A DNA stretch of 64,000 bases from Candidatus Enterousia sp. (GTDB taxonomy: Bacteria; Pseudomonadota; Alphaproteobacteria; Rs-D84): the NCBI GenBank assembly GCA_045114635.1, contig JBGUKY010000022.1, positions 4,680 to 68,679 of the forward strand, read 5' to 3'. The notes under the pieces were generated by a model. It did no database searches. It was not told the DNA's origin and worked only from the letters and a program-made list of their open reading frames with translations. Within the stretch, counting starts at the first letter, position 1. Each line of letters starts with the position of its first letter. A program made the position numbers and the translations under genes. Positions 54 through 63,888 of the stretch are shown in pieces.

Positions 54-2462
54 ATGAAAAGTTTAAAACAACAATTTAAAGAATTTCAAACAACTACGCC
101 TAAACATATCCAATGGATATTGTTGGGCGCGGCATTTGTTGTTGTTATAATTTTGTTGGTATTATTACTAGGTCACAAATCACACAGCACATCTGCTGAA
201 GAAATGAACGAAAATGTTTATCTTGATGTCGAACCTCAAGTAATAGATTTGACTAATGTAGAAATTGGAACATCAGACAGCAAAAATATCAATGTTTCTG
301 TCAATGCACCTGTTGTCATAGACAGTATTCATACCGGTGTTAATGAAATAAAAACAACGGATACTTGTGATAATCTGACCGATGTTTGTATAATTAAGGT
401 TATCTATCGTCCAACTGTTGAAAAAAAAGAATCTGATACCACATTGAAAATAAATTGGTATATCGAATCACAACCAGACATTATAAAAACTAGAGAGGTT
501 TCTGTAAAATATTCTTCGTGGAAAAAAGAAGAAAAAAAACCAGAGCCTGTCATAATTCCTGAACCAGAACCAATTATTATAGAAGAACCAGAAATAATTG
601 AACCAGAACCAATTATTCCAAAGGCTGTTGAAGAAATAAAAACTATCGCAGTTGAAAATCCTTTCAAAGAAGATCCTGTTGAAAAGTTTGCATTGCCACC
701 TGAAAAATGTTCTGAATTCGCAATTCCAGGTTATGATCAATCTGGTCGTCAAATTGGTTGGATAAAACCAGAACGTGGTGCAAATTATTTTCATCCTTTT
801 TCTGATAAAGATTGTTCGAATCCAACTGGTAAATATGATTTGGCAACCGGTATTATAACCTCGTTATCTGATGGGTCAAAAATTGGTACTGATTCAGATC
901 ATATTGGTTATCGCAATGTACGTTCTCGTAATTTAACTGTTCCTCAACTAAGTGCACCAAAATCATTAACAAGCAATGGTAAGTTTAGTGCAGATGCAGT
1001 TTGGGAAGCGACAGATACCGAAGGTAATGCAATAATAGCACAAGAAGTAAAAAAATTCGATAAAACAGCAACAGAGGATTTTGACAAACTTGCATTAAAA
1101 GGTTCTGGTTTTGATGCTGAATCAGTAACGTCTTCACGTCCATATGACCGTACATTTATATTACGTCAATTCAAACCTATTCCTGCAACAATAGTATCCG
1201 AAGTTCGCGCAGACCCAAGTGTTTACGGTTACAACAAAAATGGCGGAATACCTGAAAATGGAAAAAACGAAAATTACAGCATACCAGTTCGCGCAACAGT
1301 CGATAGAAATGTTTATTCTGATGATGGTCGCACAATAATATTACCAACAGGAACATTATTAATGGGGTATTTGGACGGCAACTTACCAGGTCCTTATCAG
1401 GCATTTGGACGCATGAATATAAAATGGTATCAATTTATTCGTCCAGATGGTGTAGAGTTTAACTTTACGGAAGGCCAAGATCCTTATTCGGCTGACGCCC
1501 AAGGTCGTATGGGGGTTCCAGGACATGGAAGTACTGATTATGTAGAACAAATGGTTATGCCAATTTTAACATCGCTTGTTCCAGCGGCGGTTAATATGAT
1601 TGCTCCAATAGCAGATACTGTTATCAATCAAATTGATTTGGATAATAACACAATTGTTCAATCTGGAACAATTCGTTCTTCAGAATTGGCAAAACAGGAA
1701 GTTATAAATACATGGAATAAAATAACCCAAAAATTATTAGTAGATGCAATTGATAATACTGTTCCACCATTTTCAATTGCTGCTGGTACACGTATAAATG
1801 TATTTTCTCCTGTCGATTTAGTTGTCACATGTGATGAAAATATAAACAAGGGTAAAAAATGTGCATTTACAACGTACAGCAATAATCCACGTCGTAGATG
1901 GGCAGATCTGAAAGATAGAGCGCGACCAAATACTCAAGATTCTTCTTGGGTTGGTCAAGTACGTTCATTTGATTTGATGCAATATTGCAGTACAGATAGC
2001 AATGGTAAAGTTTCTATTGGATCAAATTGGGCATCTTCTGGATATGATTACAGAACAGTTTATATGTACTGTGAATCACAAAATTATCAAGCCAAGAATA
2101 ATGCAAAACAAGCGGCTTACACAGAAAGCGTTAAACAACAAGCAGAAAAGAAATATGGCAACATCCAATTTAATCAAACAAAAGGCATATATGATACAAG
2201 TGGTCAAACTGCAGAACAACAAAAAGCATATAATCAAGATATACTTGGTTTGAAATATGATGATGAAGATAACATTATAAATCCTTGGGCAACACCAGCC
2301 GCTGATCCGATAGTTGAAGAAGTATTAACTTGTGATGATGGCAGTGCGCCTGATATGAACGGTTGTTGCGCAGGCGAAACATATACTGATATGGGTGATC
2401 AAGGATTCAATTGTTGTCCAGATAGCGGTGGTGATTGTTTTCCACCAATAGAAGTTAATTAA
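54..2462 (+). CDS. virB10: VirB10/TrbI-family type IV secretion protein, unusually long (802 aa) with extra N-proximal and C-terminal regions
   Basis: Single N-terminal TM helix (WILLGAAFVVVIILLVLLLG). Pro/Glu-rich spacer (PEPVIIPEPEPIIIEEPEIIEPEPIIP). Residues ~362-592 carry VirB10/TrbI barrel-domain hallmarks (IPATIVSEV..., VRATVDRNVYSDDGRTIILPTGTLLMGY, RMNIKWYQFIRPDGVEF, DAQGRMGVPGH, AAGTRINVFSPVDLVV). An intrinsic terminator follows. Confidence 0.8.
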   Translation: MKSLKQQFKEFQTTTPKHIQWILLGAAFVVVIILLVLLLGHKSHSTSAEEMNENVYLDVEPQVIDLTNVEIGTSDSKNINVSVNAPVVIDSIHTGVNEIKTTDTCDNLTDVCIIKVIYRPTVEKKESDTTLKINWYIESQPDIIKTREVSVKYSSWKKEEKKPEPVIIPEPEPIIIEEPEIIEPEPIIPKAVEEIKTIAVENPFKEDPVEKFALPPEKCSEFAIPGYDQSGRQIGWIKPERGANYFHPFSDKDCSNPTGKYDLATGIITSLSDGSKIGTDSDHIGYRNVRSRNLTVPQLSAPKSLTSNGKFSADAVWEATDTEGNAIIAQEVKKFDKTATEDFDKLALKGSGFDAESVTSSRPYDRTFILRQFKPIPATIVSEVRADPSVYGYNKNGGIPENGKNENYSIPVRATVDRNVYSDDGRTIILPTGTLLMGYLDGNLPGPYQAFGRMNIKWYQFIRPDGVEFNFTEGQDPYSADAQGRMGVPGHGSTDYVEQMVMPILTSLVPAAVNMIAPIADTVINQIDLDNNTIVQSGTIRSSELAKQEVINTWNKITQKLLVDAIDNTVPPFSIAAGTRINVFSPVDLVVTCDENINKGKKCAFTTYSNNPRRRWADLKDRARPNTQDSSWVGQVRSFDLMQYCSTDSNGKVSIGSNWASSGYDYRTVYMYCESQNYQAKNNAKQAAYTESVKQQAEKKYGNIQFNQTKGIYDTSGQTAEQQKAYNQDILGLKYDDEDNIINPWATPAADPIVEEVLTCDDGSAPDMNGCCAGETYTDMGDQGFNCCPDSGGDCFPPIEVN
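560..617 (+). repeat. in-frame 19-bp perfect direct repeat (39-bp period) within the Pro/Glu-rich spacer of the VirB10-like gene
   Basis: TGAACCAGAACCAATTATT occurs at 560-578 and 599-617, encoding the repeated EPEPII units. Confidence 0.85.
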
Positions 2463-10223: not shown

Positions 10224-10250
10224 AAAAACCGGGGTTGACCCGGTTTTTTA
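10222..10250. terminator. bidirectional intrinsic terminator (small membrane ORF / pyk)
   Basis: AAAAAAACCGGG-GTTGA-CCCGGTTTTTT. Confidence 0.75.
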
Positions 10251-11618: not shown

Positions 11619-11718
11619 TGCTCTCTCCTGCGTTCACAATAGAAAATATTTGATTTTTATTATTGATAATATATCATATAGTTTATCTTACAATACATAA
11701 AAAAACAAGGGGAAGAAT

Positions 11719-48151: not shown

Positions 48152-48664
48152 TCAATATTGCCCGATACAGCCCAAATAAGAATTACCAGTCGATTCGATA
48201 ACATTTATAAACTGATTTTGATTATTCCCAGAAAATAATGCCAAAATTGTTCCGGCATCTGTTGCCAACATATCGGACACTGTTGCAATTGAAGAATTCA
48301 TTTTCTTGAAAAAACCGCTAGAAGGTCTTATTTCTGCGGCTAACAATTGGTTTTTACCATGTAAATTGGCTGTGTTTGATGGAACAATGACCATCAATTG
48401 ACATTCTGGTGAAACGATAATTTTTTCAACGATAACCCCATCGCCACCCAACAATTCGCCCCACCACCCAGTAGATTCACAAAGCACCGGATAATAAACA
48501 ACAGCATCTTTCTTTTCTTCAAATATAGCACTGATATCAAGGTCTTCCAAAACAACCTCTGGCATAAGGCCGGTCAGGTTATTTATAACCTTGCGCGACA
48601 ATTGGTAATCAGCATTACCATTTGTTTTATGTGGCCAATAAAGAATCGGAATTTTACTCATCAC
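48152..48664 (-). CDS. hypothetical protein (170 aa), no family recognised
   Basis: Long ORF with local codon usage and no strong competing frame. Soluble. Confidence 0.5.
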   Translation of the reverse strand: MMSKIPILYWPHKTNGNADYQLSRKVINNLTGLMPEVVLEDLDISAIFEEKKDAVVYYPVLCESTGWWGELLGGDGVIVEKIIVSPECQLMVIVPSNTANLHGKNQLLAAEIRPSSGFFKKMNSSIATVSDMLATDAGTILALFSGNNQNQFINVIESTGNSYLGCIGQY

Positions 48665-48729: not shown

Positions 48730-50022
48730 TTATTTTTTTATTGCTGACGCCCATTTTTTAAGGTTTTCCCACATTATATTTATGTCTTTTTTTGCTGTTT
48801 CATAGTATTTATCTGATATTTGTATCTTGAAAAGCATATTGGTCAATTGCGGGATCATAGTCATAAACATGGCAATAAACACACCCATTAACAAAAAGGT
48901 GATCATGTTATAATCCTGGAAAATCAAGCTGTCCATCAACATTTTCGAATCGTTACTTGCGATTGCTTGTTGTAAAACATTCGCGCCTGTCCACCCACCA
49001 AATGCAGCGTTAATAAACATAACAGAGAAACCCAAAAATACTACAGTCAAAGCAATTCCGACAACTGCTTTTATTACGTCGTCTATCATTTGGCGAATCG
49101 TTCTGCCACCTTTTGGAAACAAAGCAAAGTTTTCATCATCAAACATCCAAGACATCAACATCAACGGCAACATTACCAAATCCATAGATAATTTTATAAA
49201 AATTTCCAGGAAATACAGCGGTATTGGCAAAAGAGCGAAAAAATACAAAACCAATATTAAAATTCCACAAAATAAAATCGGAATATTTGGGAAAATTGGG
49301 ACATTTGCCAATATTTTGTGCATATAATCTGTATCAAATGCCATATTCATCATGGTCCAACCAACAGTCATACCCAAACCTGTCACTTGATGAACATTTG
49401 CAACCTCACATGCCAATTGGTGCCTTAGTTTTGGCGAAAAAGCACCATACGCTGATGCCTCTGATGATACAGACACAGGGTCAGCAAGCGCTGTTGCAAC
49501 CATACACTCTGAAAATTTATTATTATCAGATACGATATAATCAAAAGAAGTCCCTATTACCAATGCTGGTTCAATCAATACATTTGTTATCAAGCGCGGC
49601 AACGGCAACAATAACAAAACAATCAACACACCTAACCTGAAAATATGTGTTCCGAAATTACCCATTATTTTTGATACATTGTCCACTTTATTGTTCAGAG
49701 TTCCGTATAACAAATTCCAAGCAATAAAAATTGCTAATAATGTCGCAGACATAGGGATTATGACATGCGATAGCGCAGACCAAACCTTTGGCAACAAGTC
49801 TGACATAGAAATCATAACATCAGAAAAAATCTGACATGTCCAACATGATGTAAAGAAATCCAGTGCGTCTTTGATATTCACAGGCGCGGCTGTACGCCAT
49901 ATTGAAACTCCTATAATACCGACACCTACTGCGGCCCCACCCAAAACAAACGGGGCGACACCCCAAGATGACATTGGTAATAATGCTAAAAACCACAACC
50001 AAAACTTTTTTAATACTTTCAT
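48730..50022 (-). CDS. polytopic membrane protein, paralogue A of a five-member family (candidate VirB6/TrbL-like)
   Basis: 430 aa from ATG 50022 (MKVLKKFWLWFLALLP...). Many TM segments, SCWTCQIF motif, PRLITNVLIEPALV helix, Lys-rich tail WENLKKWASAIKK. The track start at 50100 is a GTG overlapping the divergent gene, so I disfavour it. Confidence 0.7.
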   Translation of the reverse strand: MKVLKKFWLWFLALLPMSSWGVAPFVLGGAAVGVGIIGVSIWRTAAPVNIKDALDFFTSCWTCQIFSDVMISMSDLLPKVWSALSHVIIPMSATLLAIFIAWNLLYGTLNNKVDNVSKIMGNFGTHIFRLGVLIVLLLLPLPRLITNVLIEPALVIGTSFDYIVSDNNKFSECMVATALADPVSVSSEASAYGAFSPKLRHQLACEVANVHQVTGLGMTVGWTMMNMAFDTDYMHKILANVPIFPNIPILFCGILILVLYFFALLPIPLYFLEIFIKLSMDLVMLPLMLMSWMFDDENFALFPKGGRTIRQMIDDVIKAVVGIALTVVFLGFSVMFINAAFGGWTGANVLQQAIASNDSKMLMDSLIFQDYNMITFLLMGVFIAMFMTMIPQLTNMLFKIQISDKYYETAKKDINIMWENLKKWASAIKK

Positions 50023-50029
50023 GATTTTA

Positions 50030-50038
50030 ATTATACCA
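50030..50038 (-). promoter_or_regulatory. extended -10 element (TGgTATAAT) on the minus strand, 7 nt upstream of the paralogue A ATG
   Basis: Minus strand reads TGGTATAAT-TAAAATC-ATG. If functional it would give a leaderless or near-leaderless mRNA. Confidence 0.3.
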
Positions 50039-50054
50039 CAAATTAAGATAAATG

Positions 50055-50063
50055 TGATATAAT
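50055..50063 (+). promoter_or_regulatory. extended -10 element (TGaTATAAT) for the four-gene paralogue B-E operon
   Basis: TGATATAAT at 50055-50063, 27 nt upstream of the ATG at 50091, with AAGAGAGA between them. Confidence 0.4.
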
Positions 50064-50090
50064 TCAATACATAAAAAATAAAAAGAGAGA

Positions 50091-51395
50091 ATGCACACAC
50101 AAAACACTGTGATATTGCGCTTGTTTAAGCATGCCCAAATGTTCTTTGGGGCGTTTGTTTTGTGCGCTTTTTTTACTAATTCTGCACACGCAGATATAAT
50201 CGACGCTTATAACCTTGCACCATTTGTTCCATTGGTTCTTGAAGAGATGATGAATATGGCAACATCTCTTTACAATTTCTTTGTCGGCAAAGGCGATGGA
50301 TTGATATATTTGTGCATTTATGCTTTTGTCGCTTTTTACATAGGGTTATATCTTGTCAAAATGCATTTACCAAAAGACTGGCTTTCATTTTTTGGTTTTT
50401 CAAATGGCGGTGAAATGTGGGAATCAAAAATTGACGTTTGGAAAATCACTGACAATGTTTTAAAACCTTGTATTCGTGCTATCGTGGCCGCTGTATTTTT
50501 ATTACAAATAAAACCAGTTTATGTAACAGAATGGTTGGTAAACCCATTCTTAGAATTCGGATCTATTTATACAGAACAGATTTTGAAAAACATAAATCAC
50601 TCTACATTATCCACCACAGATGCACCTGCTTGTCCTGCATCGATTGAAGAAAGCGGATGGATTTCAAAACGCAGTTGTGATTTTCTTGTTAAACCCGTCT
50701 ATGTAATTTCCCAAGAAAATAATAAAGTTATCAGATATGGTTTTAATTTTATAAAAACAGGTATTCGTGGCATGATGACATTGATACCACATGGCGGCGA
50801 AGATCTGTTAAACATAATAACAGGTATAATGCTATTGTTTGCTTTTATATCCGCAAATGTGTTTATGGCTCTGTTGATAATTGGTGCTATATTTGAATTC
50901 TGTCTGGCGCTTATCATGTATCCATTTAATGTATTGGGATGGGTCGCAAAAAAATCTGATCAATGGATGGATATTTGGCCCGCTTTCTCACAAATAATTA
51001 GTGCATTAAAAAATCTTATTATCACTATGATCGCTTGCGCTTTCATATTATGCGTAAACATCGCTATTGTTCACGCACTATTTAATTGGTCTTCATCTGT
51101 ATTCGTTGTTGCTGCGGGCGGCGTTTCTACAAGCAACGTTCCTTCTATTACAAACAGTGCGATGAATTTTGGGCAACACTCTATTTTGTGGTTATCAGCA
51201 TTATTGACATTCTTTTTGATGCAAAACATATTCAACACGACACGTGATAGATTAGATAAGGTGTACACGAAAGATACACCTAAAGATTTGTACAATAATG
51301 TAACAAACGATGTACAAACCTTGTGGAAAAAAATAAAAGCAACACCAGAAACAATAAAAAATATTGTATCTGCAGCAGAAAAAGCGAAGAAGTAA
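50091..51395 (+). CDS. polytopic membrane protein, paralogue B (signal peptide subtype; candidate VirB6/TrbL-like)
   Basis: 434 aa. Signal peptide ending SAHA, FVPL motif, YVTEWLVNPFLEF helix, IMYPFNVLGWVAKKSDQW core, Lys-rich tail. AAGAGAGA SD-like sequence upstream. Confidence 0.75.
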   Translation: MHTQNTVILRLFKHAQMFFGAFVLCAFFTNSAHADIIDAYNLAPFVPLVLEEMMNMATSLYNFFVGKGDGLIYLCIYAFVAFYIGLYLVKMHLPKDWLSFFGFSNGGEMWESKIDVWKITDNVLKPCIRAIVAAVFLLQIKPVYVTEWLVNPFLEFGSIYTEQILKNINHSTLSTTDAPACPASIEESGWISKRSCDFLVKPVYVISQENNKVIRYGFNFIKTGIRGMMTLIPHGGEDLLNIITGIMLLFAFISANVFMALLIIGAIFEFCLALIMYPFNVLGWVAKKSDQWMDIWPAFSQIISALKNLIITMIACAFILCVNIAIVHALFNWSSSVFVVAAGGVSTSNVPSITNSAMNFGQHSILWLSALLTFFLMQNIFNTTRDRLDKVYTKDTPKDLYNNVTNDVQTLWKKIKATPETIKNIVSAAEKAKK

Positions 51396-51398
51396 AAA

Positions 51399-52586
51399 AT
51401 GCAAGAATTGGCAAACTCTTTAATAGACAGCGGCATACAATGTTGGACATGTCCTATATTTGATACCTTGTTTGCCATAGTTTCTAATACTGCGGCGGCC
51501 GCATATCAACGCCTTTGTCTTTTCAGTGTTGTTATATTTGGTGTACTGTTTGCTTTTTATTGTCTTAACATTGTATGGCAAAACATAAAAAACGGTGCAA
51601 AAGATTCATTTTTTGATAAAACTTTGCGCCCAGTGCTAATAAAATCTTTAATAGCAATTAGTATATTGGGTATGGGCTTGGTCGTTCCAAGATTTATTTC
51701 CACAATAACGTTTGAACCAGTAGCCGTCGTAACTCTACAATACACAAAAATGCTTGTGCCACCTGATTATTCAATCCCCGCATATGAAAATGCTATTAAA
51801 CTTGGGGAAAATGGATTTTTTAATCCTGAATTGCGTGATACAATCATACAAATTTTAGAAACATCTATTGCTAATTTCCAAGTGTATATAAAAATTGGAA
51901 TCGCAATAATAAATGAAGCATTCACCATAAAAGCATTACATGGAATTGGTTCACTTATAAAACACATCATTATTTGTTTCATCGGCATATTCTTGACATA
52001 TAACTTTGTAAAATTGTTTATTAAATATTCTTTCTGTTTCATGGATGTTATCTTTGCAATGGCTATGTTCGCATTCTTTTTCCCATTATCTGTTGTGTTG
52101 TTCATATTCCGCGATGCAAAAGATGCTCCCGATTGGCTGAAAGGACTCGGTTCCAAATTGGGCGGCGGACAAATTAAAAAATTGATCAATGCAATTGCAT
52201 CTATGTCTGCTTCTATTTTGACATATACTGTTATCATGTTAATTATTCGTGGATTTCTTGATGCAAATGGTGTCAGTGCAGATTCTGTACAAAACACATA
52301 TGAATCTTTGTTCGATTTTGATTTAGAAAATTCAAGCGCTATGCAAATTACTTTTGCTGGCGCAATAGTATTAGTTTATGTTGTAAATTATATCGCAGGG
52401 AAAATACCACAAGTTACAGAAAAAATATTAGATGCATTTAATATCAAACAAGAAAACGAATTATCTGAATCGATGGGCAAGGATGCACTACAATTAACAC
52501 AAATAGTTTTTGATAAAACAAAAGAATTAGCAAAGACAATTATTAATCCAAAAGACACTAAAACCGAAGAAAAGAAAGAAAAATGA
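51399..52586 (+). CDS. polytopic membrane protein, paralogue C (CWxC subtype; candidate VirB6/TrbL-like)
   Basis: 395 aa. QCWTCPIF motif, PRFISTITFEPVAV helix, FFFPLSVVLFIFRDAKDAPDWLKG core, KTEEKKEK tail. 3-nt gap after paralogue B. Confidence 0.75.
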   Translation: MQELANSLIDSGIQCWTCPIFDTLFAIVSNTAAAAYQRLCLFSVVIFGVLFAFYCLNIVWQNIKNGAKDSFFDKTLRPVLIKSLIAISILGMGLVVPRFISTITFEPVAVVTLQYTKMLVPPDYSIPAYENAIKLGENGFFNPELRDTIIQILETSIANFQVYIKIGIAIINEAFTIKALHGIGSLIKHIIICFIGIFLTYNFVKLFIKYSFCFMDVIFAMAMFAFFFPLSVVLFIFRDAKDAPDWLKGLGSKLGGGQIKKLINAIASMSASILTYTVIMLIIRGFLDANGVSADSVQNTYESLFDFDLENSSAMQITFAGAIVLVYVVNYIAGKIPQVTEKILDAFNIKQENELSESMGKDALQLTQIVFDKTKELAKTIINPKDTKTEEKKEK

Positions 52587-54037
52587 TAAAAAAGTGGTTG
52601 ATAGAAACAGGCTTAAAACTTTTAATCGGCGCAATAGCGTTAGGTGTCGGCATTTGGTATTTAAGCAGTTCTATTGGGGGCGCATCACTTTCTTATACAA
52701 GCCTTGATAATTTTATGCAACAAATAGGTACTCAAAACGGGGATCTTTCTTCGATCAACGGATGTTTTTTGTGTGTATATCTTGCTGAATTGTTCGCGGT
52801 CATAGGACGCGCTACAGAATTATTATGGTCAGGTATCGTACATCATTTATGGATACTTATGGCTGTGGGCTTTGGTATATTCATAGTATTTCACACATTG
52901 ACATTTATCAGAGAACAATCAACATCAAAAGATATAAAAGATTTAACAGATAAAGAAGTTAAACTTGATTTCAAAAAATGGTTTGAAAAAGTTTGGAAAA
53001 CCGGAATCCGTGTATTGATTGCTGGCGCATTAATCGGCGCATTAAATTGGGGCGGAACAAACACATTGAAAACTGTTTCAAATGTTATTGTTACACCCGT
53101 CACATATCTTGGTACAACATTCGCAACGATTGCAACAGGTGTTATAAATGGTGCAAAATGTGAAATACCAGAATACAGCAACAAAGCAGAAGATATTTTA
53201 ATTCCTGTATCTCATCCTTTGATGTGTGCAATCGGAAATCTGAATACAGTAATGTTGGCTGGTGCAGGTGGTGGTTTTGCTTTGATGAATTATGCATGGC
53301 TTGATTTGAATGATCGTGCTGGTGGTGTATTTACTTGGCTCGCAGGTCTTGCGCTCGTGATAATGTTCCTTGTTATCGGATTTGATTTGTTGTTCAAAAT
53401 ATTGAGTGTATTCTTTAAACTTGTATTTATTATTATCTTTATGCCTCTTTTGATTGCAGCGGCAGCTTTTGAACAAGTATGGGGATTGGCCAAAGGATTG
53501 TTTGATAACGCAGTAAAAATGCTTATTACTTCTGCAGTAAGTATATTAAAGATATGCTTAAAAATAGTTGTTATCTATGCTGTTGTATATTTTGCAGCAG
53601 ACACATTTTATCCTGGCCCAGAAGATGGATTCACAAGCATATTACCACCAATGGTTTCAAATATAAAATCGGAAAACATGGATGCTAAAACAATGTCTGT
53701 AATAAATGTATTTTCTACATGTGAAAAAGTGGCTTTGATTGATGGTAAAATGGACAAAGATAAATTCACTACATGTTTTAAGACACAAAAAAATATTGTT
53801 GAAAAAAAGTATCCTGATGCATTTGATTTTATGGATGATGGATTTGACTTTTTGTTATTTATGATTGGTGTATTCTTGTTATACTTTTGGATTGTTTCGC
53901 CAGAAATTGATAAAATATTTGGCAAAGAAGACAAAGAAACATTCGATTACGGCGGATGGCTTAAAGATTTTGGAAAGTCAGTATATGATGCACCAATGAA
54001 AATATTCCAGGCAGTTCATGATAAATCAAAAAAGTAA
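52583..54037 (+). CDS. polytopic membrane protein, paralogue D (CxxC subtype; candidate VirB6/TrbL-like)
   Basis: 484 aa. GCFLCVYL motif, NVIVTPVTYL helix, IIFMPLLIAAAAFEQVWGLAKG core, VHDKSKK tail. ATGA overlap with paralogue C. Confidence 0.75.
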   Translation: MIKKWLIETGLKLLIGAIALGVGIWYLSSSIGGASLSYTSLDNFMQQIGTQNGDLSSINGCFLCVYLAELFAVIGRATELLWSGIVHHLWILMAVGFGIFIVFHTLTFIREQSTSKDIKDLTDKEVKLDFKKWFEKVWKTGIRVLIAGALIGALNWGGTNTLKTVSNVIVTPVTYLGTTFATIATGVINGAKCEIPEYSNKAEDILIPVSHPLMCAIGNLNTVMLAGAGGGFALMNYAWLDLNDRAGGVFTWLAGLALVIMFLVIGFDLLFKILSVFFKLVFIIIFMPLLIAAAAFEQVWGLAKGLFDNAVKMLITSAVSILKICLKIVVIYAVVYFAADTFYPGPEDGFTSILPPMVSNIKSENMDAKTMSVINVFSTCEKVALIDGKMDKDKFTTCFKTQKNIVEKKYPDAFDFMDDGFDFLLFMIGVFLLYFWIVSPEIDKIFGKEDKETFDYGGWLKDFGKSVYDAPMKIFQAVHDKSKK

Positions 54038-54048
54038 AGGGACAAAGA

Positions 54049-55332
54049 ATGCAGATTCGTAAAATTTTAAAACATTTGTTTATTTGTATTTTTTGTGCAA
54101 CTTGTTTTGTTGGCTCGTCTTATGCCGCTGGCAACATACCACATGGTGATATTGGCGAATACGGCAACTGGATAACCACCGACAACATGGCAAAATACAA
54201 AGATAATTTGTCTGGGGATGTTGAAAGTTTCCAACAAACATTTCAAACGAATTTACATTCTACAAATTTTGTCCCGCTAGAAGTTAAACTTGGCCTTTCT
54301 TTTATGAAAGCACTATCTGCTATTGATAAAGTATTACAAATATCACTTGTACGTTTTACAATAATATTCCTTTTCATAATGTATGCTTTTTGGATTGGAT
54401 TGGAAGCATACAGATTGATTCGTGACACGGGTGATTACAAGAAAGCTTTATACGATATATTTATCAATGGGATAAAGATTGCAGCATGGGTTATTGTATT
54501 AAATTATGGCCCTGCAAAATTATTCACAATACTTATAACACCAATACTTGCACTTAGTATAAGTTTATCTGATTTTATATTAAACGCTGTTGCACAATCA
54601 TACAATGTTGTTATTCCAGATACATGCGCAACAATACATCAATATGTTGATGCAAATACAACAGGACAACTTTTGATAGGTTCTGATGCAGCCGCTAACA
54701 TTATGTGTTTGCCTGCACGTCTTTCAGTATATTTTTATCATGCCACCGCAAGTGCTTTTGAATGGATGGTCAATGGGCTCAAGAATAATCTGACTATGTT
54801 TATTACTGGCGCAGTATGTGTTGTTATGTTCATTGGTTGTATATTCAAATATGCATTTATGACTCTTGGGGTTGTGGTCAACTTATTCTTAACTCTTTTG
54901 ATGTTACCTTTTACTGCTGTCGCTGAATCTTTACCAAAAACAAAAGAAACAAATTATGCAGGACAAATCTTTTCTGGATTTTTGGGACTATTCAAGACCA
55001 AGAAATTATCTGATGTAATATCTGTATTCATAGATGCCGCTATTTATTTTGTATCACTTTCTATTGTCATATCCATATGTGCTGCATTGCTAACCAATAT
55101 AATATCTATTACAGGACAAAATACTTATCATGTTGGATCTGCTATGACAAGTATATTATGCGCAGGTATAATATTTTACTTCGCAAATCAGGCAGACAAA
55201 TTGGCAAAAGACATTGGTGGCAAAATAGACAATTCATTTGGTGAACTTTTACAGAAAGATACAAAACAACTTTGGACTGACACAAAAAATCTCGGCGGAA
55301 AAATATTCAAAGCTTGGGCGAACAAAAAATAA
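54049..55332 (+). CDS. polytopic membrane protein, paralogue E (signal peptide subtype; candidate VirB6/TrbL-like)
   Basis: 427 aa. Signal peptide (VGSSYA), FVPL motif, FTILITPILAL helix, LLMLPFTAVAESLP core, KIFKAWANKK tail. AAGGGA SD upstream. Confidence 0.75.
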   Translation: MQIRKILKHLFICIFCATCFVGSSYAAGNIPHGDIGEYGNWITTDNMAKYKDNLSGDVESFQQTFQTNLHSTNFVPLEVKLGLSFMKALSAIDKVLQISLVRFTIIFLFIMYAFWIGLEAYRLIRDTGDYKKALYDIFINGIKIAAWVIVLNYGPAKLFTILITPILALSISLSDFILNAVAQSYNVVIPDTCATIHQYVDANTTGQLLIGSDAAANIMCLPARLSVYFYHATASAFEWMVNGLKNNLTMFITGAVCVVMFIGCIFKYAFMTLGVVVNLFLTLLMLPFTAVAESLPKTKETNYAGQIFSGFLGLFKTKKLSDVISVFIDAAIYFVSLSIVISICAALLTNIISITGQNTYHVGSAMTSILCAGIIFYFANQADKLAKDIGGKIDNSFGELLQKDTKQLWTDTKNLGGKIFKAWANKK

Positions 55333-58172: not shown

Positions 58173-58202
58173 AAAAATCGGACACATTGTCCGATTTTTT
58201 AT
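58171..58202. terminator. bidirectional intrinsic terminator (dnaQ / Cys-rich protein gene)
   Basis: AAAAAATCGGACA-CAT-TGTCCGATTTTTT. Confidence 0.8.
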
Positions 58203-60502
58203 TATTCACACATACTGTGTTCAAGTTCACCTTGGGTGCCACCGGCAGGCACGGTACCTTCTTCACAAGATCTGCATATACCAGCATCTGTACGATATTG
58301 ATTGCTTGAACAAGATATTACACAAGCACCGTTCCAAACAGAATATCCTGATTTACATTTGCAACGATCATTTGCAAGCCCAGAGATAGTTCTATTAATA
58401 TCAGTGCTATTATATTCAACACATACATTGTTTTCATATGTTTTACATGTTTTTTCATTATAAAATTCTGAATTATCTGGACAAAGCAAAGATTGATAAA
58501 ACATTTCTGAAATACCATTTATCAATTTCATTTGTCTTTTATATTCTGCGTTTGATTCTGTATCTGATATAGCAGATATAGCATCACCCATTTCTTTATC
58601 ATATGCGAACACAGCGTAACCACAAGTCAATGCAACATTATAACAAGCACCTGTCATAACCTTGTAAATATTTTCAATTGATGCAGAAGATGTCCACGAA
58701 GTAATTTGTGTATTTTGTTGATTATAACAATCACGAACATCACTCATACAACTTGATGCATAATCAGAAATAATTTTTGATTGAGCGGCTTTGATATTCA
58801 CCATCGCACGCTGTACATAATTTACAACCACATCATTGTATGGATCATATGTTGATTTTTTTCCAGATTGAATATATGTATAATCCTGGCATTTATCCAA
58901 CACAGCACGGCAAAGTCCACCTTCCTTCACTGTTGCGCCTGTTCCAATTTTCTGCATTAAATAATTAACGATACAAGCACCATCGTGTCCACTGCATAAA
59001 GCATCACTAGAAGAATTTTTAATAAAATCTCCATTTATTTTTGTGTTGCTGTAACTGTTTTCTGCAATGGCATCTGGGTCATTCAAGAAAGCAGTTATGT
59101 TCGCGATATTTTGTCCCAACACAACATTACCATTTTCATCAATATATTTTTTCGTTGGATCCAAACATTTCACATAACCTTCGCCACAAACCATATCGTC
59201 CAACATACATTTTTCAAGTGCGCCAACACATTCTTTGATATCATATTCGTTTTTATTTTGTAAAACAGCCAAACGTGCTTTCTGCAACATTAAATTTGCA
59301 CTGCGCACATTGTTAGTTAATGTCTGATTTAATTTGACCAAACCTTGTTCATATGCGACGCAATCTTTATCGATAGCTAAATCATAATTACCAGAAATCT
59401 GATCTTCTGTACCGCCTGCATCTTTACAACGATCTAACACTGTTTTACAACGTTTTTTTGCTTCGTTATAAAGTGCCTTACCACGTTTAGATGAAATATC
59501 ATTACTTGATGAAGAACCAAACATATCAAGCGAAAACATATCAGATGAATCAGATGAAAAATCAAAATCCATATCCAACAAAGAATCTGATGTTGATGAT
59601 GAAGTCAAAGTCGTAGACGAAGTTGGATCTTTGATCATATCAGCAATATCGTCAAGCATAGAACGTGTTTGGGTATTATCTTTCGTTTTACCCATTTCTA
59701 ATTCAGCTTCGGTTGCGGACATAATTGCACGAATTTCATCTGCAGATAAACCAACATAACGAATTCTTTGTGCAACATCATTTAATTCAACATTTGCATC
59801 TTCGACCGCCTTTTGTGCCTTGGCGTATTTAGCCAAGTTAGCAGAACAAGAACATCTTTTTTGATTAGTATCTACAACAGAACAAAATTGATCCATACAT
59901 TCGTTGTACTGTTGTTGACAAGTAGAATTTAAATCAGAAGTCTTTTCTAAAATATCTTTTGCTTCGGCCAAAGATTCAGCAGTCACAAGTTTTTGTTGTT
60001 TTTGTGAACCGAATATTGATGCACGTGATTGAACACCACGAACCTGTTCATCAATATTAGATCCTGTTTGAAGACCTGTATTTCCAATTGTTGCACGTCC
60101 GCCAACTTCGGCAGTAGATGCACGCAAAACAATTCCTGCACGACGTGCAGCCGCAGTACTATTTATGCTTGCAGCTTCTGTTCTGGCACTACGACCAACA
60201 GTATTCACACCATCTTCCAATGTTGCACGTTGACTATTTGGTCGCACATTAACAGAACGCGATACAACATTGCCAGATTGTTTTTGTGACCCACGTGATG
60301 CAACATCAACTTTTTTTGCATTTGACACTGTTCTTGAAATATTCGAACTGGAACGATTTCTTGCAACGTTTTTTTCGGTTGATTGTTCAACCTTTTCAGA
60401 AGAATTTTTTGTTGGAATTGTACGGGATATAGAACCATCCGCCGCAAAAGCATTTGCAACGCCAAACACAGTTATGAAAAAACATAACAAAAATCTTCTC
60501 AT
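58202..60502 (-). CDS. large secreted Cys-rich modular protein (766 aa), unknown family
   Basis: Signal peptide (VFGVANAFA). Basic Ser/Arg/Asn-rich Cys-free region (~aa 21-190), a Cys-rich helical region, a Ser/Asp-rich linker, and a C-terminal EGF/furin-like Cys pattern (CKCKSGYSVWNGACVISCSSNQYRTDAGICRSCEEG). AAAGGAA SD upstream; terminators on both sides. Confidence 0.75.
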   Translation of the reverse strand: MRRFLLCFFITVFGVANAFAADGSISRTIPTKNSSEKVEQSTEKNVARNRSSSNISRTVSNAKKVDVASRGSQKQSGNVVSRSVNVRPNSQRATLEDGVNTVGRSARTEAASINSTAAARRAGIVLRASTAEVGGRATIGNTGLQTGSNIDEQVRGVQSRASIFGSQKQQKLVTAESLAEAKDILEKTSDLNSTCQQQYNECMDQFCSVVDTNQKRCSCSANLAKYAKAQKAVEDANVELNDVAQRIRYVGLSADEIRAIMSATEAELEMGKTKDNTQTRSMLDDIADMIKDPTSSTTLTSSSTSDSLLDMDFDFSSDSSDMFSLDMFGSSSSNDISSKRGKALYNEAKKRCKTVLDRCKDAGGTEDQISGNYDLAIDKDCVAYEQGLVKLNQTLTNNVRSANLMLQKARLAVLQNKNEYDIKECVGALEKCMLDDMVCGEGYVKCLDPTKKYIDENGNVVLGQNIANITAFLNDPDAIAENSYSNTKINGDFIKNSSSDALCSGHDGACIVNYLMQKIGTGATVKEGGLCRAVLDKCQDYTYIQSGKKSTYDPYNDVVVNYVQRAMVNIKAAQSKIISDYASSCMSDVRDCYNQQNTQITSWTSSASIENIYKVMTGACYNVALTCGYAVFAYDKEMGDAISAISDTESNAEYKRQMKLINGISEMFYQSLLCPDNSEFYNEKTCKTYENNVCVEYNSTDINRTISGLANDRCKCKSGYSVWNGACVISCSSNQYRTDAGICRSCEEGTVPAGGTQGELEHSMCE
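59492..59626 (-). repeat. Ser/Asp/Thr-rich low-complexity coding tract
   Basis: Encodes TSSTTLTSSSTSDSLLDMDFDFSSDSSDMFSLDMFGSSSSN in the 766-aa protein. Confidence 0.8.
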
Positions 60503-61360: not shown

Positions 61361-63814
61361 TTATTTATCTCTAAGCTTATATTCCGATTCTCTTATTTCT
61401 TTATCAAGTTGGACTGTAGCTGCATTATATTTTCTTAACCATGTTTTACATTCTTCTATGCCACTAGGTTCAACATTGCACGTTGCATCTGCCCCCGTCC
61501 CTTTACAATCATTTATTTGCTTTGTAAGAAAATCGTTTGCTGTATTAATTCCCAATTTCAACTCAGCCTTAGCGTACCTATCACATTTCTTATTATCAAT
61601 TTGTGTTCTCAAAGTGTTATAATTTTCGCGCAAACAGTCCAGTGTTCCCTGCATAGTTTTACCAGAACAATCACGATATCGGGATGCTTTTGAACTGCTA
61701 CTTCCCAATAATCCCGAAGACGAATCATCATCTTTTGCGCCGGCGGCTTCTAATGTAGCTGTCAACGTAGCCTTTTCAAGTTGTGTCTTTAATCTGCGCA
61801 ATGTAGCAGAAAGGTATTCATATTGTTTATACATCTGCTGTGAAACGACAGTTGTTTTCAAACCAATTATTTCCTTCATATCACCAAACATTTCTTTTTG
61901 ATGAGAATCATAATCCTGCTTTTTATTTTTATAATTGTCTGACTTTGCATCCCAACCTTCTTCTCGTTTTATACAACCTTCGTCTGTCGGTTCATAATTT
62001 TCTTTACAGAATCTAACTTTACATGTTATTCCGCCACTTTGACTTGAATCTGCCCAAACTATTTTATCCAATCCTTTTGTAATTTTGGCATTTGCTTGGT
62101 CCTTGTATTCGCCTTTTGTCGCCTTTGTTGTACAATTATATTTGTCTGTTTTTACACTTTCTGATGCATTATCTTTTCCAACGTTATACAAATGCGTATC
62201 GCAGATCGCAAAGATTGGACTTACATAGCCACATTCTTCTTTTTCTTCGGCCATAAAGTCAGATTTATTCATACCTGCTTTTATATCTTTCACACACAAA
62301 GGATAATTATTAACCCCTTGTGCCGACTTGCTTAATGTCGCCTTTTCCAGCACATCAACATACTCTGAAGCATCACAATAAGCTATCAATTCTTTGGCTT
62401 CTCTGCCTTTTGTTTTTCTTGGTTCGTTTTGATTTAACCACACATCTAATTTATCAATATCGACAAGACCGGCACCATTTTTATTTTTTGTTCTGCGTCT
62501 GAACAACGCCGACGAATCCAGCGCACCTGATGCACACGCAACCACAGTTCCATTTGATGTGCTGTCCACTGTTGGATTTACCCAACCTTCATAAACCTCA
62601 TCTTCACTGCTTAATACTTTTAATAATGTACAAGGTTTACAACTGGACTTTATCTTGTCGTTCATACAGTTTTCAAGCACACGTGATGAATCTGCTTTTT
62701 TGTCCATATATGCAGCAGCAAGCACAGATGAACAAGCGGACATTTTATCAAATTCTGACATTTCTGCAGGACAAGAATATGGCGTACCATTATTGCCAAC
62801 ATATTCTATTTTTGCACCTCTTTCGCACATATATTGTCCCCAACGATTACATGAATTATTTAACATCATGTAAATATCAGACAGATTTACACCAACCAAC
62901 TGTGCCAATTCCAATGCATCATAAACTTTATCAATTGTGTTATCATATGGGGTTAAAAATTCTGTTGCCAATTCACGCCATTTTTTAATACGTTTTGGCC
63001 CTTCGCAATTATTACCGCGTGCATCACATTTTGCATATTCAAACGCAGCATTCATTACTGTTTTAACTTCTTTCAACGACACTTCGGCATTTTCAAGTTC
63101 GGTCATAATTTGGCCAGTAATTTTTTGACGTTCCAAAACATCAGCAGAGATGCCACGATTTATCGCATCTTGTTGATATGCCGATACGCCAGCTTCGTTT
63201 TCTTTTGCAGCATCAGTTGCCGCCGTTTTCATGTTTTCAAGTGCAGCAGCAGATTGGGCAGCCTGTTGTGCAAGTGCAGCCTGAAGTTGTTGTTGCGATT
63301 CAGCCTGTTGTTGTGCCATCTGGGCTTGCATTTGCTGCATCTGATATTGCATTTCTTGCATTTGTTGTTGCGATTGCTGTGCAGCCGCTTGCGCTGCAGC
63401 CTGTTGTGCCGCCGCATTTTGTTCGTTTATTTTGGCATTAGAACTCGCTACCAATTGGGCAGACATATATTCTTCCAAATCTGCGCCATATTGTTTACAT
63501 GATGAATTAGATTGAACACAACCTTTTACTATAGCAGAAGCCACAAAATAATCAGAACAACCACCGTTACTACATTTTGGTTGCGCACAACGCAAAATCA
63601 AAGCATTACAGTTTCCAAAGTCAACCTTGGCCGTCGCATTATTGCCATCATAACGACCGTTTGACATCATTGCCCATTGATTATTATTCGCATTGCTTGG
63701 ATTATATGCGGTCAAATTAGATCCCGCAGTTGTCGCAACAGGACTAGCCGCCGATGCAAACGCAACCGGCGCAAAACATAGCATTATTGTTAAAATGCGC
63801 GATAAATTATTCAT
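61361..63814 (-). CDS. large secreted Cys-rich modular protein (about 817 aa), distant paralogue of 58202..60502
   Basis: Signal peptide from ATG 63814 (MNNLSRILTIMLCFAPVAFASA). Cys cluster (FGNCNALILRCAQPKCSNGGCSDY), a long Gln/Ala coiled-coil tract, many paired Cys, and a GSSSS-containing linker followed by a C-x-LDC module as in the other protein. Confidence 0.75.
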   Translation of the reverse strand: MNNLSRILTIMLCFAPVAFASAASPVATTAGSNLTAYNPSNANNNQWAMMSNGRYDGNNATAKVDFGNCNALILRCAQPKCSNGGCSDYFVASAIVKGCVQSNSSCKQYGADLEEYMSAQLVASSNAKINEQNAAAQQAAAQAAAQQSQQQMQEMQYQMQQMQAQMAQQQAESQQQLQAALAQQAAQSAAALENMKTAATDAAKENEAGVSAYQQDAINRGISADVLERQKITGQIMTELENAEVSLKEVKTVMNAAFEYAKCDARGNNCEGPKRIKKWRELATEFLTPYDNTIDKVYDALELAQLVGVNLSDIYMMLNNSCNRWGQYMCERGAKIEYVGNNGTPYSCPAEMSEFDKMSACSSVLAAAYMDKKADSSRVLENCMNDKIKSSCKPCTLLKVLSSEDEVYEGWVNPTVDSTSNGTVVACASGALDSSALFRRRTKNKNGAGLVDIDKLDVWLNQNEPRKTKGREAKELIAYCDASEYVDVLEKATLSKSAQGVNNYPLCVKDIKAGMNKSDFMAEEKEECGYVSPIFAICDTHLYNVGKDNASESVKTDKYNCTTKATKGEYKDQANAKITKGLDKIVWADSSQSGGITCKVRFCKENYEPTDEGCIKREEGWDAKSDNYKNKKQDYDSHQKEMFGDMKEIIGLKTTVVSQQMYKQYEYLSATLRRLKTQLEKATLTATLEAAGAKDDDSSSGLLGSSSSKASRYRDCSGKTMQGTLDCLRENYNTLRTQIDNKKCDRYAKAELKLGINTANDFLTKQINDCKGTGADATCNVEPSGIEECKTWLRKYNAATVQLDKEIRESEYKLRDK
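63239..63427 (-). repeat. Gln/Ala-rich (CAG/CAA/GCx) low-complexity coding tract
   Basis: Encodes NEQNAAAQQAAAQAAAQQSQQQMQEMQYQMQQMQAQMAQQQAESQQQLQAALAQQAAQSAA. It generates spurious antisense ORFs. Confidence 0.85.
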
Positions 63815-63888
63815 CTCTCTTGGGTATAATTTTATCATAAAAAACATTTTGTGTAAAGAGTCAAGATTGTGTTTTTATATTTTTATTC

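What the first reader, a model, noticed from the sequence alone, without database searches (positions are those of the whole stretch)
48730..55332. Five-gene array of paralogous polytopic membrane proteins (divergent VirB6/TrbL-like?) unlinked to other T4SS genes
Seen in sequence: one minus-strand gene (48730-50022) and four tightly packed plus-strand genes (50091-55332, with a 3-nt gap, an ATGA overlap and an 11-nt gap) encode 395-484-aa proteins. Each has many hydrophobic segments and ends in a Lys-rich amphipathic tail (WENLKKWASAIKK; TLWKKIKATPETIKNIVSAAEKAKK; KELAKTIINPKDTKTEEKKEK; MKIFQAVHDKSKK; KNLGGKIFKAWANKK). They share motifs in the same order. There is an N-proximal element of two kinds: C-[WF]-x-C-x-[IY]-[FL] in A, C and D (SCWTCQIF, QCWTCPIF, GCFLCVYL), versus a cleavable signal peptide plus FVPL in B and E. 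There is a helix with a conserved Pro (PRLITNVLIEPALV / PRFISTITFEPVAV / YVTEWLVNPFLEF / NVIVTPVTYL / FTILITPILAL). There is a central helix-Pro-helix followed by a polar, Trp-containing stretch (FFFPLSVVLFIFRDAKDAPDWLKG; IIFMPLLIAAAAFEQVWGLAKG; IMYPFNVLGWVAKKSDQW). That last element resembles the core of Agrobacterium VirB6 as I remember it (…AIGPLILVGYIFDRTRDIAAKWIGQ…; from memory, unverified). Established knowledge: tandem amplification of virB6 into 4-5 copies is the signature of the Rickettsiales rvh type IV secretion system, where the array follows virB3-virB4. Inference: this is either a new variant of that theme or a distinct, undescribed membrane complex. Its copies are shorter and fall into two subtypes. 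It uses a divergent promoter and has no adjacent virB3/virB4, and the only other T4SS gene in the window (virB10) is 48 kb away. To my knowledge the CWxC motif is not a described VirB6 feature.
Basis: partly seen in the sequence, partly recalled or inferred. Interest (0 to 1): 0.75.

Follow-up and report, generated by a model that had tools for sequence, protein, structure and literature searches.

The report
Five divergent VirB6 secretion-channel paralogues
A tiny-genome gut bacterium (Candidatus Enterousia) carries five unannotated, very divergent copies of VirB6, the inner-membrane core protein of type IV secretion machines; the copies sit apart from the other secretion genes, much as in Rickettsia, in a lineage where this was not known.

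Summary

They are true paralogues. Profile-profile probabilities are 81-99% for 8 of 10 pairs, against 12% or less for reversed controls.

The same array, in the same order, is present in all 73 related loci with enough flank.

No Pfam or NCBIfam model hits them. Three lines of evidence still place them in the VirB6/TrbL superfamily:
- Their joint profile retrieves proteins that pass the Pfam TrbL threshold, at E of about 1e-16 to 1e-20.
- A bridging profile links all five (99.4-100%) to canonical VirB6 (95%, E 2.7e-8; reversed control 0.4%).
- AlphaFold models of A and E both have R388 TrwI/VirB6 as their best PDB match.

virB10 lies in the window. In a relative, virB8 and virB9 lie just upstream of it.

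This is a Rickettsia-like scattered T4SS with amplified VirB6, here in a domain-only form. It belongs to a CWxC-motif subfamily that forms arrays of three to five in uncultured Alphaproteobacteria.

The T4SS ATPases could not be searched for. It is a new variant of a known kind, of moderate interest.

The parts
48730..50022 (-). Paralogue A (430 aa): VirB6-like inner-membrane protein of the CWxC subtype. It has an N-terminal signal-like segment, invariant C60-W61-x-C63, and a conserved loop Cys pair (C173/C205).
   Evidence: ORF. 819 homologues, all unannotated. Profile links to C, D, E and B. AF2 model with pLDDT 78.6 and pTM 0.72, whose top PDB matches are TrwI/VirB6. Conserved residues.
50023..50090 (.). 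68-nt divergent control region holding an inverted pair of extended -10 boxes. On the minus strand, TGTGGTATAAT (50040-50030) lies 7 nt before the ATG of A, which predicts a leaderless or near-leaderless mRNA. On the plus strand, TGTGATATAAT (50053-50063) lies 27 nt before the ATG of B, with AGAGAGA directly upstream of that ATG. Each box's TGTG, read on the other strand, forms the -35-like A[TC]CACA of the opposite promoter.
   Evidence: Sequence. These positions are at least 90% conserved in 55 distinct intergenic sequences from genomes whose proteins are only 50-83% identical; the spacer is 62-71 nt in most loci. The minus-strand promoter was also flagged by the consensus scan. Promoter function is inferred, not shown.
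50091..51395 (+). Paralogue B (434 aa): VirB6-like, of the signal-peptide/FVPL subtype without CxxC. It has a conserved loop Cys pair (C181/C196).
   Evidence: 99.4% to the bridging profile.
51399..52586 (+). Paralogue C (395 aa): VirB6-like, CWxC subtype. It has no N-terminal signal segment, and its core FFFPLSVVLFIFRDAKDAPDW matches the VirB6 P-x8-F-[DE]...W pattern.
   Evidence: 99% to A; 99.9%.
52583..54037 (+). Paralogue D (484 aa): VirB6-like, with CFLC in place of CWxC, an N-terminal anchor, and an extra loop carrying C380/C398. Its start overlaps the stop of C (ATGA).
   Evidence: (99.8%).
54049..55332 (+). Paralogue E (427 aa): VirB6-like, signal-peptide/FVPL subtype, with a loop Cys pair (C193/C220).
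   Evidence: 99% to B; 99.6%. AF2 model with pLDDT 84.4 and pTM 0.77, whose top PDB matches are TrwI/VirB6.
48152..48661 (-). 169-aa soluble protein of unknown function, lying directly downstream of A on the same strand. It is possibly co-transcribed with A; membership in the system is unproven.
   Evidence: Present next to A in 81/81 loci at 63-96% identity, so it is more conserved than A-E. No Pfam hit. No hit among PDB sequences.
54..2462 (+). VirB10 homologue (802 aa): TM segment, Pro-rich region, TrbI domain, and a Cys-rich C-terminal extension. It is the only other recognisable T4SS gene in the window, 48 kb from the array.
   Evidence: Pfam TrbI 1.8e-15. tblastn to annotated plasmid virB10 genes at 27-30% identity. 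In the relative L090 it is preceded by virB8 (PF04335, 3e-6) and virB9/CagX (4e-20).

Best explanation
The five genes encode highly divergent members of the VirB6/TrbL superfamily, the polytopic inner-membrane protein that forms the base of the central stalk of type IV secretion systems. They belong to a subfamily found in uncultured Alphaproteobacteria. That subfamily is marked by an N-proximal G-C-W-x-C-P-x-F motif and typically occurs as tandem arrays of three to five paralogues.

In Candidatus Enterousia (order Rs-D84) genomes are under 1 Mb and a partner-dependent lifestyle is predicted. Here the array has been fixed as exactly five domain-only paralogues. They are transcribed from one compact divergent promoter region: A in one direction, and a translationally coupled B-C-D-E operon in the other.

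The most likely function is to supply the VirB6 stalk base, that is the inner-membrane channel, of a chromosomally scattered, Rickettsia-like T4SS. The virB8-virB9-virB10 operon of that system lies 48 kb away.

Shown: paralogy, VirB6 homology and fold, strict conservation of the array, and presence of virB8, virB9 and virB10.

Inferred: that the five proteins work with those VirB proteins, and that they co-assemble. Solved VirB6 is a pentamer, so one attractive but unproven reading is a hetero-oligomeric stalk base built from the five paralogues. The substrate is unknown; effectors delivered into a partner cell and DNA uptake or release are the candidates.
For: Homology:
- The five-paralogue profile finds 1083 representative clusters at E<=1e-3.
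- Hits outside the five orthologue groups include P0249, P0275, P0237, P0276 and P0283. They pass the Pfam TrbL gathering score (34.5, 29.8, 29.1, 29.0 and 27.8 bits against 25.9). They were retrieved at E 5e-19, 7e-17, 2e-20, 7e-17 and 2e-16.
- 19 of 56 distant hits match TrbL at E<=0.01, always over TrbL positions of about 80-197, which is the central hairpin.
- The bridging profile gives 99.4-100% to A-E and 95.2% (E 2.7e-8, 258 columns) to 123 canonical VirB6 sequences; the reversed control gives 0.4%. The hallmark core aligns: LlPLxIvxWVFpxT against APiFIxxlLFxxT.
- NCBI itself names P0275 a 'type IV secretion system protein'.

Fold:
- The top PDB hits for both AF2 models are TrwI/VirB6 chains (7o3v, 8rtd, 8rt9), with Foldseek probability up to 1.00, TM-score by target 0.43-0.55, and 320-348 aligned columns. 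Unrelated helical proteins follow, almost all at probability 0.5 or less.

System context:
- VirB10 is in the window.
- VirB8 and VirB9 lie upstream in the relative L090, flanked by housekeeping genes.

Selection:
- The array is intact in 73/73 loci with sufficient flank, across species in which A is only 50-83% identical.
- The intergenic promoter region is conserved.

Precedent:
- Rickettsia has five about 80%-divergent VirB6 paralogues and a T4SS scattered over three loci (PMC2653234).
- VirB6 forms a pentamer at the stalk base in R388 (PMC9259494).
Against: - No direct Pfam or NCBIfam match for any of the five, even at E<=10.
- Direct hhalign of each paralogue family against rhizobial VirB6 is no better than a reversed control.
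- A family profile against PDB sequences does not find TrwI.
- Foldseek E-values are modest (2.5e-3 to 1e-1) and RMSD is high (8-12 A).
- No virB3/virB4 lies next to the array here or in any of six outgroup loci.
- Array size in other lineages is 3, 4 or 5, so five is not a universal requirement. That weakens the one-of-each pentamer idea.
Confidence: 0.75

Rival explanations
1. The proteins descend from VirB6 but have been exapted into a separate inner-membrane complex that no longer works with a T4SS. One possibility is a conduit or transporter for scavenging metabolites in a bacterium that lacks standard uptake systems.
For: The array is never adjacent to virB3/virB4, either here or in six outgroup loci. 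A is paired with a highly conserved soluble protein of unknown function in 81/81 loci. Outgroup arrays are followed by a conserved double-HTH regulator and conserved unknown genes rather than vir genes. The Enterousia literature notes missing standard transporters and many hypothetical membrane proteins (PMC12306168). T4SS ATPases were not found, though they could not be searched for.
Against: virB8, virB9 and virB10 are retained in these very small genomes. They would have no obvious partner for the inner-membrane stalk without a VirB6, and no other VirB6 candidate was seen. Rickettsiales show that scattered vir genes still form one system.
Confidence: 0.13
2. The system is a ComB-like DNA-uptake T4SS. 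VirB6-10 homologues would bring DNA across the outer membrane and ComEC would take it across the inner membrane, feeding a cell that cannot make nucleotides.
For: The virB8-9-10 operon is not followed by virB11 or virD4. A ComEC gene is in the window at 16308-18287 (Pfam Competence, 1.4e-51). Enterousia lacks nucleotide biosynthesis (PMC12306168). By general knowledge, the Helicobacter ComB system is a T4SS split into two operons without VirB11 or VirD4.
Against: ComEC is widespread and not diagnostic. Absence of virB11/virD4 next to virB10 does not show that they are absent from the genome. ComB systems, by general knowledge, have one ComB6, not five.
Confidence: 0.1
3. The resemblance to VirB6 is an artefact of hydrophobic composition, and the five proteins are an unrelated family of helical membrane proteins.
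For: Direct sequence and profile comparisons with canonical VirB6, Pfam and PDB sequences are all non-significant.
Against: Reversed-sequence controls, which keep composition, fall to 0.4% where the true bridging comparison gives 95.2%. Five intermediates pass Pfam's curated TrbL cut-off. Two independently predicted models both rank TrwI/VirB6 first among 350,542 PDB chains. The P-x8-F-[DE] core aligns in register.
Confidence: 0.02

Closest known systems
Rickettsiales vir homologue (rvh) T4SS with RvhB6a-e (PMC2653234)
   Same: There are five tandem VirB6 paralogues that differ from each other by about 80% or more. The T4SS genes are scattered over separate chromosomal loci among housekeeping genes. 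The host is a genome-reduced, partner-dependent alphaproteobacterium.
   Different: Rickettsia copies are 674-1154 aa with large flanking extensions; these are 395-484 aa, roughly the bare VirB6/TrbL domain. The Rickettsia array follows virB3-virB4, whereas here no vir gene is adjacent and one paralogue is transcribed divergently. Rickettsia copies are recognised by PF04610/COG3704; these are not. The lineage is Rs-D84/Enterousia, which NCBI places in Alphaproteobacteria incertae sedis, not Rickettsiales. Orthology with RvhB6a-e could not be tested because no Rickettsia sequences were available.
TrwI/VirB6 of plasmid R388 (PDB 7O3V, 8RT9, 8RTD; PMC9259494)
   Same: It is the best structural match for models of both subtypes. 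It shares the long-helix architecture and a central hydrophobic hairpin containing a conserved Pro.
   Different: Sequence identity is 11-15%. TrwI is a single gene that forms a homopentamer and is encoded within a contiguous trw/virB operon. It has no CWxC motif in canonical relatives (0/123). Whether A-E assemble as a pentamer is unknown.
Unannotated CWxC-type VirB6-like arrays in other uncultured Alphaproteobacteria (loci L121-L126, L131; for example MBR7158659.1 and MDY6408150.1)
   Same: They share the N-proximal GCWxCPxF motif (45/48), signal peptides, and tandem arrays unlinked to virB3/virB4. HH probability to A-E is 99.4-100%.
   Different: Most are larger (440-960 aa). Arrays hold 3, 4 or 5 genes, all on one strand. 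They are followed by a conserved double-HTH regulator. Some reach the Pfam TrbL threshold. There is no B/E-type (FVPL) subtype and no detectable one-to-one orthology with A-E.

Membership tests
VirB6/TrbL superfamily (Pfam PF04610) | Direct match of the protein to the curated family model | tested here: not met
   No PF04610 or NCBIfam hit for any of A-E, even at E<=10. hhalign against a profile of 123 VirB6 sequences gives probability 1.5% or less, the same as the reversed control.
VirB6/TrbL superfamily (Pfam PF04610) | Homology demonstrable through intermediate sequences (transitive profile link) | tested here: met
   The five-paralogue profile retrieves five proteins above the TrbL gathering score at E 5e-19 to 2e-16. 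The bridging profile gives 99.4-100% to A-E and 95.2% (E 2.7e-8) to canonical VirB6, with a reversed control of 0.4%.
VirB6/TrbL superfamily (Pfam PF04610) | VirB6 fold as seen in TrwI of the R388 stalk | tested here: met
   AF2 models of A (pTM 0.72) and E (pTM 0.77) both rank TrwI/VirB6 chains first in the PDB, with probability up to 1.00 and TM-score by target 0.43-0.55. E-values are modest (2.5e-3 to 1e-1).
VirB6/TrbL superfamily (Pfam PF04610) | Polytopic inner-membrane topology with a large periplasmic loop and a central TM hairpin carrying the conserved Pro, followed by an aromatic-acidic pair and a Trp | tested here: met
   Hydropathy shows the same order of segments in all five. G253 and P286 (A numbering) are invariant across paralogues and relatives. 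P-x8-F-[DE] aligns with the VirB6 core APIFIxxLLFD. The Trp is conserved in A, B and D at 97% or more and in C at 80% or more, but is absent in E. Sidedness of the loops is predicted only.
VirB6/TrbL superfamily (Pfam PF04610) | Encoded together with other T4SS genes | tested here: inconclusive
   Not adjacent to any vir gene. virB10 lies 48 kb away in the window, and virB8-virB9 lie upstream of it in a relative. VirB2, B3, B4, B11 and D4 could not be searched for.
VirB6/TrbL superfamily (Pfam PF04610) | Assembles as a pentameric stalk base contacting VirB5, VirB2 and VirB8 | not testable with these tools
   Only single-chain structure prediction was available. Pentamer precedent comes from PMC9259494.
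Rickettsiales rvh-type VirB6 array | Tandem amplification into 4-5 highly divergent VirB6 paralogues | tested here: met
   Five paralogues at 15-21% identity, conserved in 73/73 complete loci.
Rickettsiales rvh-type VirB6 array | Array directly follows virB3-virB4 | tested here: not met
   The flanks are uvrD/dnaQ on one side, and a 169-aa unknown gene, rpmE and an IMPase gene on the other.
Rickettsiales rvh-type VirB6 array | Paralogues carry large N- and C-terminal extensions (674-1154 aa) | tested here: not met
   The proteins are 395-484 aa. Only some A orthologues carry a C-terminal extension of about 220 aa.
Rickettsiales rvh-type VirB6 array | Orthology with RvhB6a-e / placement within Rickettsiales | not tested
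The host genus is Alphaproteobacteria incertae sedis in NCBI and order Rs-D84 in GTDB.

The most novel reading that the evidence does not exclude
The five paralogues are not redundant. They co-assemble one-of-each into a symmetry-broken hetero-pentameric VirB6 stalk base. Three positions would carry a periplasmic CxxC redox or metal site, and two would carry the FVPL variant. The tight operon and shared promoter would enforce the stoichiometry. If so, Enterousia offers a minimal, domain-only model that would explain why VirB6, alone among T4SS parts, is repeatedly amplified to about five copies in host-dependent Alphaproteobacteria, including Rickettsia.
Probability: 0.2. Interest if true: 0.8.

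Novelty: new variant of a known kind. Interest (0 to 1): 0.55.

Why it matters
VirB6 amplification has been treated as a peculiarity of Rickettsiales, and its purpose is unexplained. This finding shows the same theme in a different, very abundant group of genome-reduced gut and rumen Alphaproteobacteria. Every copy there is annotated 'hypothetical', and no published genome description found in the held paper library mentions a T4SS.

It defines a recognisable subfamily, the CWxC-type VirB6-like proteins, which current Pfam and NCBIfam models mostly miss. T4SSs are therefore probably under-called in these lineages.

The Enterousia copies are stripped to the bare domain and fixed at exactly five, which equals the subunit number of the solved VirB6 pentamer. 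They therefore give a tractable system for testing whether the paralogues form a heteromeric stalk.

The finding also gives these predicted obligate symbionts or parasites a candidate machine for interacting with a partner cell.

Tried and rejected
- Pfam and NCBIfam scans of A-E found nothing.
- A second word-indexed protein search, using the five-paralogue alignment, returned mostly the same close A orthologues and added little.
- A family profile against PDB sequences gave only spurious low-complexity or coiled-coil hits and did not find TrwI.
- Direct hhalign and hmmsearch with a rhizobial VirB6 profile against A-E and their relatives were not significant. Single VirB6 sequences with phmmer were also not significant.
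- tblastn of a TrbL-positive relative (P0276) against 72,556 plasmids found no match, so the subfamily appears to be chromosomal.
- The generic promoter and terminator scan was not enriched over shuffles. Comparative alignment of the intergenic region was informative instead.
- The conserved 169-aa neighbour could not be identified through Pfam or a profile against PDB sequences.
- Looking for a published T4SS inventory of Enterousia failed. One paper has no T4SS mention and no held supplements. The 2023 Enterousia paper is not held. A search for Rs-D84 plus 'secretion system' gave nothing relevant.
- A strict 'five everywhere' rule was considered and rejected, because outgroup arrays have 3, 4 or 5 members.
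- One-to-one orthology between A-E and the outgroup paralogues was considered and rejected. Paralogues within L122 resemble each other more than they resemble L123 or Enterousia copies.

Full report
**Observation.**
The window contains the five ORFs exactly as described. They are A 48730-50022 (-), B 50091-51395 (+), C 51399-52586 (+), D 52583-54037 (+) and E 54049-55332 (+). The spacings are a 3-nt gap, an ATGA overlap and an 11-nt gap.

A simple hydropathy scan shows one shared plan in all five:
- An N-terminal signal or anchor segment, absent in C.
- A short polar stretch carrying CWxC/CFxC (A, C, D) or FVPL (B, E).
- Two TM helices, the second with a conserved Pro.
- A polar loop of 70-130 residues with a conserved Cys pair in A, B and E.
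- A long hydrophobic hairpin with an invariant Gly and Pro.
- A short charged stretch, usually containing Trp.
- One or two further TM helices.
- A Lys-rich tail.

**Paralogy.**
Pairwise identity is only 15-21%, and single-sequence BLAST is weak but colinear. I extracted 66-75 orthologues of each paralogue from related loci and compared the resulting profiles.
- Local hhalign scores are 49-117 (probability 81-98.5%) for 8 of 10 pairs.
- Reversed-sequence controls, which keep composition and hydrophobic periodicity, score 15-33.
- A and C pair most strongly, as do B and E. B-C and B-D are not significant on their own.

**Host and conservation.**
Homologues of A are all unannotated proteins from uncultured Alphaproteobacteria of animal guts. 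Several are named Candidatus Enterousia. The best match is 84% identical.
- In 81 loci from different species (A 50-83% identical), all five genes occur in the same order and orientation in 73. The other eight loci are cut by contig ends.
- Enterousia (GTDB order Rs-D84) has genomes under 1 Mb. It lacks most biosynthesis and is predicted to depend on a partner organism (PMC12306168). That paper does not mention a T4SS.

**What the proteins are: sequence evidence.**
Pfam and NCBIfam find nothing. An exhaustive HMMER search with the five-paralogue profile finds 1083 representative clusters at E<=1e-3 and 347 at E<=1e-10.
- Most of the top 150 hits are orthologues of A-E.
- About 35 lie outside those groups. 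They are closest to A and C, and many are 600-877 aa.
- Of 56 distant hits, 19 match Pfam TrbL/VirB6 at E<=0.01, always over the central part of the model.
- Five exceed the curated gathering score of 25.9 bits: P0249 (34.5), P0275 (29.8), P0237 (29.1), P0276 (29.0) and P0283 (27.8).
- NCBI names P0275 a 'type IV secretion system protein'.

A profile of 48 of these outgroup proteins matches the five Enterousia families at 99.4-100% (E 4e-21 to 3e-41, 306-375 columns). It matches a profile of 123 canonical, PF04610-positive VirB6 sequences at 95.2% (E 2.7e-8, 258 columns). The reversed VirB6 control gives 0.4%. In that alignment the VirB6 hallmark core APiFIxxlLFxxT lines up with LlPLxIvxWVFpxT.

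Direct comparison of each Enterousia family with VirB6 is not significant, although it is colinear. The sequence link is therefore transitive.

**What the proteins are: structural evidence.**
The AlphaFold models are of reasonable confidence: A has pLDDT 78.6 and pTM 0.72, and E has pLDDT 84.4 and pTM 0.77.
- Foldseek against 350,542 PDB chains ranks TrwI/VirB6 chains of the R388 T4SS stalk first for both models. Probability is up to 1.00, TM-score by target is 0.43-0.55, and 320-348 columns align.
- Unrelated helical proteins follow, almost all at probability 0.5 or less.
- E-values are modest and RMSD is high. This fits a very distant relative modelled in a different conformation.

**System context.**
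- The ORF at 54-2462 is a VirB10 homologue (Pfam TrbI 1.8e-15; 27-30% identity to annotated plasmid virB10).
- Metagenomic relatives show that the gene is preceded by virB8 and by a virB9 with a SPOR domain. The block is flanked by nusG-rplKAJ and yidC, with no virB11 or virD4.
- The T4SS genes are thus scattered among housekeeping genes. This is the pattern described for Rickettsia, which also has five about 80%-divergent VirB6 paralogues (PMC2653234).
This remains the main gap.

**The wider subfamily.**
- The N-proximal motif is not peculiar to this window. G-C-W-x-C-P-x-F occurs in 40/48 outgroup proteins, or 45/48 allowing F, Y or L in place of W. That count includes all five TrbL-positive proteins.
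- It also occurs in A (67/67) and C (73/76), and as CFxC in D (74/74). It is absent from B and essentially absent from E (1/69), and from 123 rhizobial VirB6 sequences.
- Outgroup proteins also sit in tandem arrays: five in L122, L123 and L131, four in L126, and three plus one nearby in L124. None is beside virB3/virB4.
- Paralogues within one lineage resemble each other more than those of other lineages. The amplifications are therefore either independent or homogenised.

**Regulation.**
The 68-nt region between A and B is strikingly conserved, at 90% or more at many positions in 55 distinct sequences. It holds an inverted pair of extended -10 boxes.
- TGTGGTATAAT on the minus strand (50040-50030) ends 7 nt before the ATG of A. 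This predicts a leaderless or near-leaderless transcript.
- TGTGATATAAT on the plus strand (50053-50063) lies 27 nt before the ATG of B, with AGAGAGA directly upstream of that ATG.
- Each box's TGTG, read on the other strand, forms the -35-like hexamer of the opposite promoter.

This supports coordinated divergent transcription of A and B-C-D-E. It is inference from conservation, not a measurement.

**Mechanism.**
In the R388 structure, VirB6 forms a pentamer inserted in the inner membrane at the base of the stalk. It is proposed to recruit pilin through its first TM helix (PMC9259494).

The best-supported reading is that A-E provide this stalk base for the Enterousia T4SS. Several features make co-assembly into a mixed ring attractive: five strictly conserved, non-interchangeable paralogues, a shared promoter region, and translational coupling. 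It is unproven, and arrays of 3-4 elsewhere argue against a universal one-of-each rule. No paper in the held library pairs VirB6 with 'heteropentamer'.

The CxxC element lies just before the first TM helix on the predicted periplasmic side. A disulfide or metal site is possible but untested.

**Rivals.**
- An exapted, T4SS-independent complex.
- A ComB-like DNA-uptake system working with the ComEC gene in the window.
- A compositional artefact, which the reversed-sequence controls make very unlikely.

**Verdict.**
The feature is a new variant of a known kind: a Rickettsia-like VirB6 amplification in a different lineage. It is domain-only, invisible to Pfam, and belongs to a CWxC-marked subfamily. 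Interest is moderate (0.55). It would be higher if the heteromeric-stalk idea or a T4SS-independent role were demonstrated.

Noticed in passing
window 48152-48661 (-): A 169-aa soluble protein lies directly downstream of paralogue A in 81/81 related loci at 63-96% identity, so it is more conserved than the VirB6-like genes themselves. It has no Pfam hit and no hit among PDB sequences. It may be a conserved partner or an unrelated housekeeping gene.
   Followed up: partly
window 54-2462 (+); L090 7757-12523: The VirB10 homologue is unusually long (802 aa) with a Cys-rich C-terminal extension. In the relative L090 it follows virB8 and a 496-aa virB9 that carries a SPOR (peptidoglycan-binding) domain. 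The operon lies between nusG-rplKAJ and yidC, with no virB11 or virD4.
   Followed up: partly
window 58202-60502 (-) and 61361-63847 (-): Two large proteins (766 and 828 aa) have signal-peptide-like N-termini and no meaningful Pfam match. They may be surface or secreted proteins of this host-dependent bacterium.
   Followed up: no
window 16308-18287 (+): A ComEC competence channel gene (Pfam Competence 1.4e-51 plus DUF4131). It is relevant to the idea that the T4SS could serve DNA uptake in a cell unable to make nucleotides.
   Followed up: no
L019, L022, L027, L029, L032, L074 (A orthologue, about 10001-11950); P0139, P0145, P0150: In some Enterousia lineages the A orthologue carries an extra C-terminal extension of about 220 aa (640-714 aa in total) with no Pfam match. 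This recalls the extensions of Rickettsia RvhB6 proteins.
   Followed up: partly
L122 16021-17013, L124 15409-16404, L126 11584-12564 and the genes downstream: In outgroup lineages the VirB6-like array is followed by a highly conserved 326-331-aa protein with two HTH_3 domains, then by several conserved proteins with no Pfam match. This may be a further, unrecognised part of the same system.
   Followed up: partly
L123 4967-5227; L122 13964-14185; L131 16603-16815: Small 70-86-aa ORFs sit at the edge of, or inside, outgroup arrays. The two that were translated (L123, L122) are two-TM hairpin proteins. They might be VirB3- or VirB2-like, but this was not tested. The Enterousia array has no equivalent.
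   Followed up: no
L057 (OZ246409.1, 612567-633853): A complete 716,531-bp chromosome titled 'uncultured Muribaculaceae bacterium' carries the full A-E array, with A 55% identical. The taxonomic label looks wrong for this record. It would be the ideal genome for a full T4SS inventory.
   Followed up: no
window 50000-54000: GC skew turns positive only over the B-E block (+0.015 and +0.16, against about -0.1 to -0.24 in the flanks). This matches the only long plus-strand gene run in this part of the window, so it is a strand effect and not a sign of foreign DNA. GC content there is slightly lower (0.34 against 0.37).
   Followed up: partly
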